64,000 bases of DNA, from positions 8,097-72,096 of the IMG/VR virus record IMGVR_UViG_3300011008_000041. The stretch is one strand, 5' to 3'. Position numbers and translations under genes: made by a program. Source of the DNA: a virus (taxonomy: Duplodnaviria; Caudoviricetes). The notes below the pieces were generated by a model. The model worked only from the letters and a program-made list of their open reading frames with translations. It made no database searches and had not been told where the DNA came from. This document shows, in pieces, positions 6,592 through 7,723 of this stretch; position 1 is the stretch's first letter, and each line of letters begins with the position of its first letter.

Positions 6592-7723
6592 CTAGCCGTG
6601 CCTCGGCGACCCAAACCACGCCTGCCCATCCGCTCCGGACCGCACCACAACGCATCATTCCAAACCACGCCTGCCAAACCGAACCCTTCCGATCCCATCC
6701 GCACCGGACCTAACCTTGCCTGCCATACCACGTCCACCCTCGGCTCTACCGACCTCGCCATCCATGCCTGCCAGCCTTGCCATTCCGTACCGCGCCGAAC
6801 CTTGCGTCAACGCGCCATGCCGAGCCGCGCCTGCCATAACGTTCCCTTCCGGGCCCAACTCTGCCTTGACAAGCCATGCCAGCCAGTCCACACCTGAGCA
6901 TGCCGTTTCCCACCGGAACTGACCTCGCCTTGCCCGCCATGCCTCACAGATCCAAAGCGAACACTACCGAAGCCAACCATGCCCGCCGCGCGTAGCCACC
7001 TCGTACCGTAACTAGCCTCAGCAAACCGGGCCTGCCATGCCCAGCCATGTCCCGCCTTGACGTTCCGAACCTGAACGGACCATGACTGCCAAACCGCCCG
7101 TGCCGTACCGGGCGCAGCCTACCCGGACCATGCCAGCCGTACCGTACCAAAGCCCACCACAACAAGCCGTGCCATGTCACACCGGAACTGCCTTGCCTGG
7201 ACGTGCCTGACCTCGCGTCGACTTTCCACGCCTAGCCTAGCCTGGCAAACCGTACCGAAGCTCATCCAACCGGAACCAACCGAGCCCCGCCTAAACCCGC
7301 CTGTCATATATGTACCGAGCCCAGCCCCGCAAAGCCGTTCCACAACTGGCCCTTCCTTGCCTGCCGCACCGAGCCTTTCCAGACCGTGCCTAGCCCCAGC
7401 GAAGCATGCCCCGCCTGCCGCACCGAGCCGAACCTTGCCAAACCCCGCAAGACCCAGCCTAAACAGAGCGAACCGTGCCTTGCCTGCCTTGCCGGACCTA
7501 GCCGGGACAAACCGGGACTTGACACACCTAGCCTGCCGGGCCATTCCACGCTCTGCCACGACGCACCGCTCAGGACCACGCCATTACGTGACTTGCCTTG
7601 CCTGCCAGTCCATGCCATAACGAGACGCGCCAAGCCCCGCCATCCTTACCCTGACCGCCGTACCGAACCAATCCAGAACGGGCCCAGCCAAACCGGAACA
7701 TGACTTACCCAGCCGTGCCTGTC
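6592..7723 (-). ncRNA. GGY-NN pentamer-periodic guide array (about 20 units; VIPR-like guide RNA array)
   Basis: Plus strand reads RCC-NN repeated, e.g. gcc aa acc ga acc ct tcc ga tcc ca tcc gc acc gg acc ta acc tt gcc. 21 delimiters of type gcc-n-gcc; 15 of 20 spacings equal 4+5n nt. Confidence 0.85.

What the first reader, a model, noticed from the sequence alone, without database searches (positions are those of the whole stretch)
7535..7602. Guide unit encoding SNF2/SF2 helicase motif V (GITLTAAGTMVFF)
The 13 NN are GG AT AC CT AC GC GC GG AC AT GT TT TT = G I/M T L T A A G T I/M V F/L F/L. This resembles the GITLTAAxTxxF motif V of SNF2-family phage helicases, a third conserved replication gene.
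Basis: partly seen in the sequence, partly recalled or inferred. Interest (0 to 1): 0.75.

Follow-up and report, generated by a model that had tools for sequence, protein, structure and literature searches.

The report
Phage VIPR guide against rival helicases
This 69-base stretch is one guide RNA of a phage's VIPR system (a CRISPR-related DNA silencer first described in 2026), and its two-letter code words match, skipping every third base, the DNA for a catalytic motif of an SNF2 helicase carried by well over a hundred other phages and prophages, so it is a clear new example of a known kind.

Summary
Window 6585-7722 is a 1.1-kb array of about 216 GGY-NN pentamers on the minus strand. It splits into about 20 units at -1 phase shifts, and sits between a Vipr (Cas7-like RAMP) gene and a conserved accessory gene in a 72-kb phage. 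This is a VIPR system with a staggered vrRNA array, as described in 2026 bioRxiv preprints.

Read with the published one-base-skip rule, it matches these targets:
- **Best match:** 12/13 dinucleotides (25/26 bases), wobble-aligned, at motif V (LGITLTAAGTMVFY) of an SNF2 helicase. The gene lies in the replication module of a 71-kb provirus in an Oscillospiraceae MAG.
- **Viral contigs:** at least 11/13 in at least 119 viral contigs, all in frame in the same motif. A reversed-pattern control found 0.
- **Genomes of that MAG's order:** 6 of 401 within 3 base mismatches, 0 in controls.

No 13/13 target was found. The phage has no such helicase and no self-match (best 6/13). The likely role is silencing of rival phages' replication genes; expression and binding are inferred, not shown. 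This is a new member of a known kind. The scan has already reported VIPR guides on SNF2 helicase motifs in other genomes.

The parts
7534..7602 (-). The vrRNA guide unit of the finding. It has 14 pentamers: 13 variable NN plus the constant boundary pentamer GGCA(G) that overlaps the next unit by 1 nt. vrRNA NN 5'->3': AA AA AC AT GT CC GC GC GT AG GT AT CC (AG).
   Evidence: Phase-aware parse, base-by-base alignment to the target, no significant RNA structure (z 0.55).
6585..7722 (-). Staggered vrRNA array: about 216 GGY-NN pentamers in about 20 units of 7-23 pentamers. Units are separated by -1 phase shifts at GGCA|GGC.
   Evidence: Lag-5 periodicity, phase track, parse, position statistics. 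No Rfam family and no hammerhead.
7730..8398 (-). vipr gene: a 222-aa Cas7-like RAMP. Its stop codon lies a few bases upstream of the array.
   Evidence: phmmer E 2.9e-5 to PDB 36pp_D 'SUSP1 Vipr protein', with G-loop CGIGEWR aligned to CGVGDWR. AlphaFold model pLDDT 81.5; Foldseek top hits are Csm3/Cas7 RAMPs at E 2.5e-5. phrog_4652. 31 homologous viral loci with arrays downstream.
6094..6579 (-). Candidate vap (vipr-accessory) gene, up to 161 aa, immediately downstream of the array.
   Evidence: tblastn finds a homolog right after the array in 28 of 31 sister Vipr loci. phrog_15946, unknown function. No Pfam family.

Best explanation
The stretch is one guide (vrRNA unit) of a phage-encoded VIPR system with a staggered array.

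Proposed mechanism:
- The array is transcribed on the minus strand with or after vipr.
- Each GGY triplet is held by Vipr protomers, one protomer per pentamer and about 13-14 here.
- The NN dinucleotides are presented for pairing with double-stranded DNA in which every third base is skipped.

This guide's NN string is complementary to the coding strand of motif V (G-I-T-L-T-A-A-G-T-M-V-F-F) of an SNF2 helicase family. These helicases sit in the replication modules of other phages and prophages, including proviruses of Oscillospiraceae and related genomes. Because the skipped bases fall on wobble positions of a catalytic motif, one guide covers more than a hundred diverged rivals, and a rival can escape only by changing the motif.

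Binding most likely blocks transcription of the helicase. In the best-matching provirus it would also block the downstream DNA polymerase A and primase genes on the same strand, crippling a competing phage.

- Shown here: the anatomy, Vipr homology and fold, the match statistics, the skip rule, the wobble alignment and the absence of self-targets.
- Inferred from the 2026 papers: expression, processing at the phase-shift boundaries, filament formation and silencing.
For: - **System identity.** Vipr homology to the solved SUSP1 Vipr and a RAMP fold. A GGY/NN array on the same strand directly after vipr, with 1-nt staggered boundaries as in fig. S18 of 10.64898/2026.04.26.720920. The vipr-array-vap order is conserved in sister loci. 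The host record is a 72,096-bp virus with terminal repeats and phage recombination genes next door.
- **Best target.** 12/13 NN (25/26 bases, 27/28 with the boundary NN) at G001:22505, in frame in a PF00176+PF00271 helicase.
- **Skip rule.** The 1-nt skip gives 12 matches; 0, 2 or 3-nt skips give 6.
- **Unit boundaries.** The match spans the unit exactly from boundary to boundary.
- **Breadth.** At least 119 viral contigs at 11/13 or better, all in the same motif; the reversed control gave 0. Seven sites in 6 of 401 genomes of the order, 0 in controls, all the same helicase family at 59-80% identity.
- **Wobble logic.** Read positions match the guide in 86-88% of 15 homologs, while skipped positions show only a 57% majority base.
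- **No self-target.** Best self-match is 6/13, and the phage has no homologous helicase.
- **Target context.** The helicase heads a module of sigma-like gene, helicase, DUF7307, PolA, DUF7768 and D5-type primase.
Against: - No 13/13 target was found in any of the three collections. The guide combines Gly at codon 8 (seen only in one provirus) with Phe/Leu at codon 13 (seen in a different allele).
- Six of the unit's 14 constant triplets are not GGY. Mutating GGY abolished silencing in SUSP1 (10.64898/2026.04.26.720920).
- That paper reports small-RNA confirmation for the two other non-type-II architectures it names but not for staggered arrays. No expression data exist for this phage.
- No minus-strand sigma-70 promoter was picked up.
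- Mismatch tolerance at 11-12/13 is not measured; the published cut-off of at least 80% NN is bioinformatic.
- The host of this phage is unknown. No Vipr of this clade was found in 151 genomes of the target's order, so co-occurrence with the targets is not shown.
- No other guide of the array hits the same rivals.
Confidence: 0.85

Rival explanations
1. The unit is a decayed or decoy guide. It derives from a helicase-targeting vrRNA but no longer works, because nearly half of its GGY scaffold is degenerate and it has no perfect target. It persists as array filler.
For: Only 8 of 14 triplets are GGY. No 13/13 match was found anywhere. Perturbing GGY abolished silencing in SUSP1 (10.64898/2026.04.26.720920).
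Against: Inner-pentamer degeneracy is the norm across the whole array (49% GGY), and the paper itself notes it as frequent. All 13 NN are still coherent with one motif, at 25/26 bases to the best target. The terminal pentamers that mark unit boundaries are intact GGC.
Confidence: 0.07
2. The guide acts on the helicase mRNA (antisense) or recruits the accessory protein to damage the target, rather than acting as a DNA-bound transcriptional roadblock.
For: The guide is complementary to the coding strand and therefore also to the mRNA. The accessory protein has no known function. Some VIPR types carry nucleases (10.64898/2026.04.26.720920).
Against: Published VIPR complexes bind double-stranded DNA and hit both strands (10.64898/2026.04.26.720920, 10.64898/2026.04.26.720927). 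A sister array's guide matches the same helicase family on the antisense strand. No nuclease domain was detected in the accessory gene.
Confidence: 0.06
3. The resemblance to helicase motif V is a chance by-product of a GC-rich periodic sequence that has some other role, such as a DNA-bending or packaging element.
For: None beyond the fact that short degenerate peptides can be read into many sequences.
Against: At least 119 hits against 0 for forward versus reversed 22-base patterns. P(12/13 or better) is about 4e-14 per position. Shuffled guides reach at most 8/14. The adjacent gene is a Vipr homolog.
Confidence: 0.01

Closest known systems
VIPR systems with staggered vrRNA arrays (bioRxiv 10.64898/2026.04.26.720920, fig. 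S18)
   Same: A Vipr RAMP gene flanked by a long non-coding array of GGY/NN pentamers, with adjacent vrRNAs overlapping by 1 nt. A small accessory gene is present. The system is phage-encoded, and targets follow the NNx (1-nt skip) rule.
   Different: This array is unusually long: about 20 guides over 1.1 kb, against about 300-450 bp in the 31 sister loci found here. That paper reports sRNA-seq confirmation for the hammerhead-interspersed and single-vrRNA architectures but not for staggered arrays, and I could not assign a VIPR type (I-VII) with the data to hand.
Type II VIPR of Escherichia phage SUSP1 and the P. fulva prophage (10.64898/2026.04.26.720920; structures in 10.64898/2026.04.26.720927, PDB 36pp)
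   Same: Homologous Vipr: E 2.9e-5 over the C-terminal 57 residues, with G-loop C, W and R and the thumb Arg conserved. Same pentamer code and the same wobble-aligned targeting of coding sequence.
   Different: There is no invariant 3' tail or pseudoknot between guides. Sequence similarity is limited to the C-terminal part, and the D177 equivalent is Glu. The accessory gene is different. Targets here are replication helicases of (pro)phages rather than satellite recombinases or lysis-lysogeny regulators.
Wobble-aligned targeting of a catalytic core to prevent escape (10.64898/2026.10.15.759431)
   Same: The guide reads codon positions 1-2 of a catalytic motif conserved across many rivals. Skipped positions are the most variable (57% majority base against 86-88% match).
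   Different: The target is SNF2 helicase motif V in phages of gut-type Firmicutes rather than an E. coli satellite recombinase. No experimental test has been done.
Class 1 CRISPR Cas7 backbone (Csm3, Cas7-11, type VII Cas7)
   Same: The predicted fold of the protein is closest to these RAMPs (Foldseek E 2.5e-5 to 1e-3). Guide-target pairing is periodically interrupted by a thumb.
   Different: The window has no CRISPR repeats and no cas1, cas2 or other cas genes. The guide is discontinuous (2 read, 3 flipped on the RNA, 1 skipped on the DNA). TM-scores of only 0.36-0.50 to Cas7 structures.

Membership tests
VIPR system | Vipr protein: a minimal RAMP homologous to characterised Vipr | tested here: met
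   phmmer E 2.9e-5 to PDB 36pp_D 'SUSP1 Vipr protein'. CGIGEWR aligns with CGVGDWR, and the YR aligns with R138 (residue roles from 10.64898/2026.04.26.720927). Model pLDDT 81.5; top Foldseek hits are Cas7/Csm3 RAMPs.
VIPR system | vrRNA made of tandem GGY/NN pentamers next to vipr (at least 4 units) | tested here: met
   About 216 pentamers at 6585-7722 on the vipr strand, with G 94%, G 78%, Y 87% and variable NN.
VIPR system | Natural targets obey the 1-nt skip (NNx) rule at 80% NN or better | tested here: met
   Skip 1 gives 12/13; skips 0, 2 and 3 give 6/13 on the target provirus. At least 119 viral contigs at 11/13 or better.
VIPR system | No self-targeting at 80% NN or better | tested here: met
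   Best match in the 72-kb genome is 6/13. No hit within 3 mismatches.
VIPR system | Associated vap accessory gene | tested here: inconclusive
   A gene conserved after the array in 28 of 31 sister loci, but it has no Pfam family and was not compared with published vap1-6.
VIPR system | vrRNA expressed, processed and bound by Vipr; silences its target | not testable with these tools
   Needs sRNA-seq, pull-down and reporter or phage assays.
Staggered-array VIPR architecture | Adjacent vrRNAs overlap by 1 nt, with no tail or ribozyme between them | tested here: met
   Every unit boundary is a 4-nt step GGCA|GGC, a -1 phase shift. No Rfam hit and no hammerhead. The target match is bounded exactly by the two boundaries.
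Type II VIPR (SUSP1-like) | Invariant structured 3' tail (pseudoknot) after each repeat tract | tested here: not met
   Units abut directly. The unit RNA shows no significant structure (z 0.55).
SNF2 helicase motif V (the target) | The target site lies in the Helicase_C lobe of an SNF2-domain protein, just upstream of motif VI | tested here: met
   PF00176 E 1.7e-29 and PF00271 E 2.1e-12. The site LGITLTAAGTMVFY is followed by QAKARIHRVGQ. In 89 of 115 viral sites a motif-VI-like pattern follows.
CRISPR-Cas | Direct repeats with spacers, plus cas1, cas2 or effector cas genes | tested here: not met
   TRF finds no CRISPR-like array in the window. The neighbouring genes give no cas families.

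The most novel reading that the evidence does not exclude
The guide is not a copy of any one rival's sequence. It is a 'between-alleles' string: Gly at codon 8 as in one provirus, Phe/Leu at codon 13 as in another lineage. It lies within 1-2 dinucleotides of well over a hundred diverged helicase genes. If this is selected rather than a sampling gap, staggered VIPR arrays evolve broad-spectrum guides that recognise a protein motif rather than a genome. Together with a sister phage's guide on the same helicase family, that would make SNF2 replication helicases a recurrent battleground among gut Firmicute phages. It would also raise the open question of how such guides are generated without any known adaptation machinery.
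Probability: 0.25. Interest if true: 0.55.

Novelty: new member of a known kind. Interest (0 to 1): 0.35.

Why it matters
The result gives a statistically clean natural target for a guide from a staggered-array VIPR, an architecture for which the discovery paper reports no experimental confirmation. The match obeys the 1-nt skip rule and is bounded exactly by the -1 phase-shift boundaries, which supports those boundaries as real guide limits.

It also extends the known VIPR target range to the catalytic motif V of SNF2 replication helicases in (pro)phages of Oscillospiraceae-type hosts. One wobble-skipping guide can cover more than a hundred diverged rivals. It does not change the picture drawn by the 2026 preprints; it adds a well-controlled example and a ready-made guide-target pair for testing.

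Tried and rejected
- **Exact 13-NN pattern.** 0 hits in viral contigs. Cores containing GG at codon 8 found only one provirus in viral, genome and metagenome collections, so no perfect target exists in the data held.
- **Self-targeting or self-avoidance.** The phage has no homologous helicase and no near match.
- **Convergence of the array on one rival.** The other 18-19 guides do not hit the best-matching provirus, five further helicase-bearing records for the PolA-like and SSB-like guides, or 1.1 Mb around 116 helicase sites.
- **Conservation of this guide in sister arrays.** None of 256 parsed units (111 distinct guides of at least 9 NN) from 31 Vipr loci resembles it; the best match is 5 NN.
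- **Host link.** No Vipr of this clade in the target-bearing genomes or in 151 genomes of the same order. blastn of the locus against the phage collection found nothing.
- **Relation between degenerate constant triplets and the target's wobble bases.** None seen by inspection.
- **Known RNA families or structure in the unit.** None.
- **Sigma-70 promoter scan.** No minus-strand promoter found for vipr or the array.
- **VIPR type assignment.** The paper's text does not describe vap2-6 or type markers, so the type stays unassigned.

Full report
**What is in the sequence.**
The window is bases 8097-72096 of a 72,096-bp virus record with direct terminal repeats. Between two minus-strand genes lies the only 5-nt periodic stretch of the window, about 6585-7722. 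Its lag-5 autocorrelation is 0.40-0.50, against about 0.25 at other lags. Read on the minus strand, it consists of about 216 pentamers of the form G (94%) G (78%) Y (87%) N N.

The phase slips by -1 about every 40-70 nt, always at GGCA|GGC. This divides the stretch into about 20 units of 7-23 pentamers. The first and last pentamers of a unit are almost always GGC, while inner ones are looser (49% GGY).

The finding's unit runs from 7602 to 7534 on the minus strand. Its pentamers are GGCaa GGCaa GTCac GTAat GGCgt GGTcc TGAgc GGTgc GTCgt GGCag AGCgt GGAat GGCcc GGCa(g).

**What system it belongs to.**
I read them and tested membership myself.

The papers describe a phage-encoded minimal RAMP protein (Vipr) and vrRNAs made of GGY/NN pentamers. 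The NN pair with double-stranded DNA while one target base per unit is skipped. Targets are usually coding sequence with the skipped base on the wobble position. Array forms include 'staggered arrays' whose vrRNAs overlap by 1 nt (10.64898/2026.04.26.720920; structures in 10.64898/2026.04.26.720927).

Evidence gathered here:
- **Vipr homology.** The gene whose stop lies a few bases upstream of the array (7730-8398, minus strand, 222 aa) hits PDB chain 36pp_D 'SUSP1 Vipr protein' at E 2.9e-5. Its G-loop CGIGEWR aligns with CGVGDWR, and an Arg aligns with the thumb residue R138.
- **Fold.** A model built on 19 homologs (pLDDT 81.5) is closest to Csm3/Cas7 RAMPs (Foldseek E 2.5e-5).
- **Conserved locus order.** Thirty-one viral contigs encode homologs at 34-68% identity, and most have a periodic array directly downstream. 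In 28 of them the array is followed by a homolog of the 161-aa gene at 6094-6579, the likely vap.
- **No other RNA or CRISPR features.** No Rfam family or hammerhead lies in the array, and there are no CRISPR repeats.

The locus is therefore a VIPR system of the staggered-array kind, not the SUSP1-like type II, because there is no 3' tail between units.

**What this guide matches.**
The vrRNA is the minus strand, so the DNA strand it can pair with reads (CTx) GGx ATx ACx CTx ACx GCx GCx GGx ACx ATx GTx TTx TT.

- **Exact pattern.** The full 13-NN pattern has no exact match in 2.9 million viral contigs.
- **Eight-NN core.** It gave 22 hits, of which 18 stay at 8-9/13 and are unrelated proteins. 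One (L018) reaches 10/13 in another SNF2 helicase, at VGLTLTAAGTIVHLQ.
- **Best hit.** Three records of one 71,205-bp provirus extend to 12/13, and to 13/14 with the constant boundary dinucleotide. That is 25/26 read bases, 27/28 with the boundary.
- **Where the site lies.** It is in frame at LGITLTAAGTMVFY, just upstream of QAKARIHRVGQ. The protein carries PF00176 SNF2-rel_dom (E 1.7e-29) and PF00271 Helicase_C (E 2.1e-12).
- **Same provirus elsewhere.** The same site appears in an Oscillospiraceae MAG (WRHM01000001.1) and in its metagenome contig.
- **Single mismatch.** The only mismatch is the dinucleotide at the vrRNA's 5' end: TT in the guide against TA (Tyr) in the target.
- **Bounded by the unit.** The match does not continue into either neighbouring unit, so it is bounded exactly by the two phase-shift boundaries.

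**How far beyond chance.**
- Shuffling the order of the guide's dinucleotides gives at most 8/14 on that provirus, against 13/14 observed.
- Skip lengths of 0, 2 and 3 give 6/13, against 12/13 for the 1-nt skip.
- With background dinucleotide frequencies, P(12/13 or better) is about 4e-14 per position.
- Freeing codons 8 and 13 leaves 22 fixed bases.
- All 117 sites I could read are in frame and spell GITLTAA[S/D/G..]T[M/I]VF[Y/W/F..]. Of these, 111 match at 11/13 and 6 at 12/13.
- The same pattern read backwards found none. The reversed 8-NN core found 4 hits, with a best of 9/13.
- In 401 genomes of the MAG's order, 7 sites in 6 genomes lie within 3 base mismatches, and none match the control.
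- All seven are the same helicase family at 59-80% identity. One allele, GITLTAASTMVFF, differs only at Gly to Ser.

The published criterion for a natural target (at least 80% NN) is met many times over. No 13/13 target exists in the data held.

**The logic of the target site.**
I collected 15 helicase homologs by protein similarity (53-100% identity). In these, the bases the guide reads match it in 86% (codon position 1) and 88% (position 2) of cases. The skipped wobble bases show only a 57% majority base.

This is the escape-proofing logic described for SUSP1 and its satellite (10.64898/2026.10.15.759431). Here it is applied to a catalytic helicase motif.

In the best-matching provirus the helicase heads a same-strand replication module. 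Its genes run sigma-like, helicase, DUF7307, family-A DNA polymerase, DUF7768 and D5-type primase. A roadblock at the helicase could therefore also starve the downstream genes. This last step is an inference.

**Self and non-self.**
The phage has no homolog of this helicase, and its best self-match is 6/13. Its neighbouring genes are recombination functions: NinB/Orf and a Sak4-like annealing protein.

**Most likely mechanism.**
The array is transcribed with or after vipr and divided at the staggered boundaries. About 13-14 Vipr protomers coat the unit, flipping out each GGY and presenting the NN. The filament invades a 41-bp site in the rival's helicase gene and forms the gapped R-loop triplex seen in the SUSP1 structures. 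Transcription of the rival's replication genes is then blocked.

Only the anatomy, homology and target statistics are shown here. Expression, processing, binding and silencing are inferred from the type II work.

**Caveats.**
- Six of the unit's 14 scaffold triplets are not GGY.
- The discovery paper reports sRNA-seq confirmation only for the hammerhead-interspersed and single-vrRNA architectures, not for staggered arrays.
- Mismatch tolerance is unmeasured.
- The phage's host, and its co-occurrence with the targets, are unknown.
- The other guides of the array do not converge on the same rivals.

**Verdict.**
It is a new member of a known kind, VIPR. The scan has already reported VIPR guides on SNF2 helicase motifs in other genomes and other guides of this same array, so interest is moderate.

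Noticed in passing
L037:1249-2747 (= G001:21249-22747): In the best-matching provirus the targeted helicase is split between two frames. The N-terminal ~60 residues end at ...VALLMEM followed by a stop, and the rest resumes at AIGTGKT. Compared with intact homologs (ALLMEMG[CT]GKT), an 8-nt insertion (TAGCCATA) sits inside the Walker A motif. The gene is therefore either a pseudogene in a decaying prophage or an assembly error. All records probably derive from one assembly (Ga0082212).
   Followed up: partly
L053:1448-1501 (sister VIPR array, IMGVR_UViG_2124908002_000026): A guide from a different VIPR phage (Vipr 65% identical) matches the same SNF2 helicase family at 7-8 of 10 NN on the antisense strand. 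The site encodes ATKAECLDLPE, and the skipped bases again fall on wobble positions. The match appears in G001 and at least seven homologs. This suggests the helicase family is a recurrent target of this VIPR clade, but the statistics are borderline (about 0.3 such hits expected by chance).
   Followed up: partly
L047:3725-3773: Another sister-array guide matches 7/9 NN in frame immediately 3' of motif V (SLSYNFADY) in three helicase homologs (L086, L087, L089). This is within chance expectation on its own.
   Followed up: partly
window 6585-7722 compared with L040-L068: This phage's array (about 20 guides, 1.1 kb) is two to four times longer than the arrays of the 31 sister Vipr loci (about 260-460 bp). 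No guide is shared with them, so guide content turns over completely at 68% Vipr identity.
   Followed up: partly
window 7248-7361: One unit is 23 pentamers long and contains a poorly conforming middle (ATAta TGAca). It may be two guides whose boundary has decayed, or an insertion.
   Followed up: no
window 8456-8499: A strong terminator-like hairpin (15 pairs, followed by a T-run on the plus strand) lies just upstream of vipr, next to a plus-strand TTGCAA-17-TATAAT promoter-like site at 8399-8427. All neighbouring genes are on the minus strand. It may be a bidirectional terminator that insulates the VIPR operon.
   Followed up: no
L036:3328-17442: The IMG/VR 'provirus' that carries the target also contains a 4,704-aa ORF on the opposite strand. 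This is probably a host surface protein, so the provirus boundaries are likely too wide.
   Followed up: no
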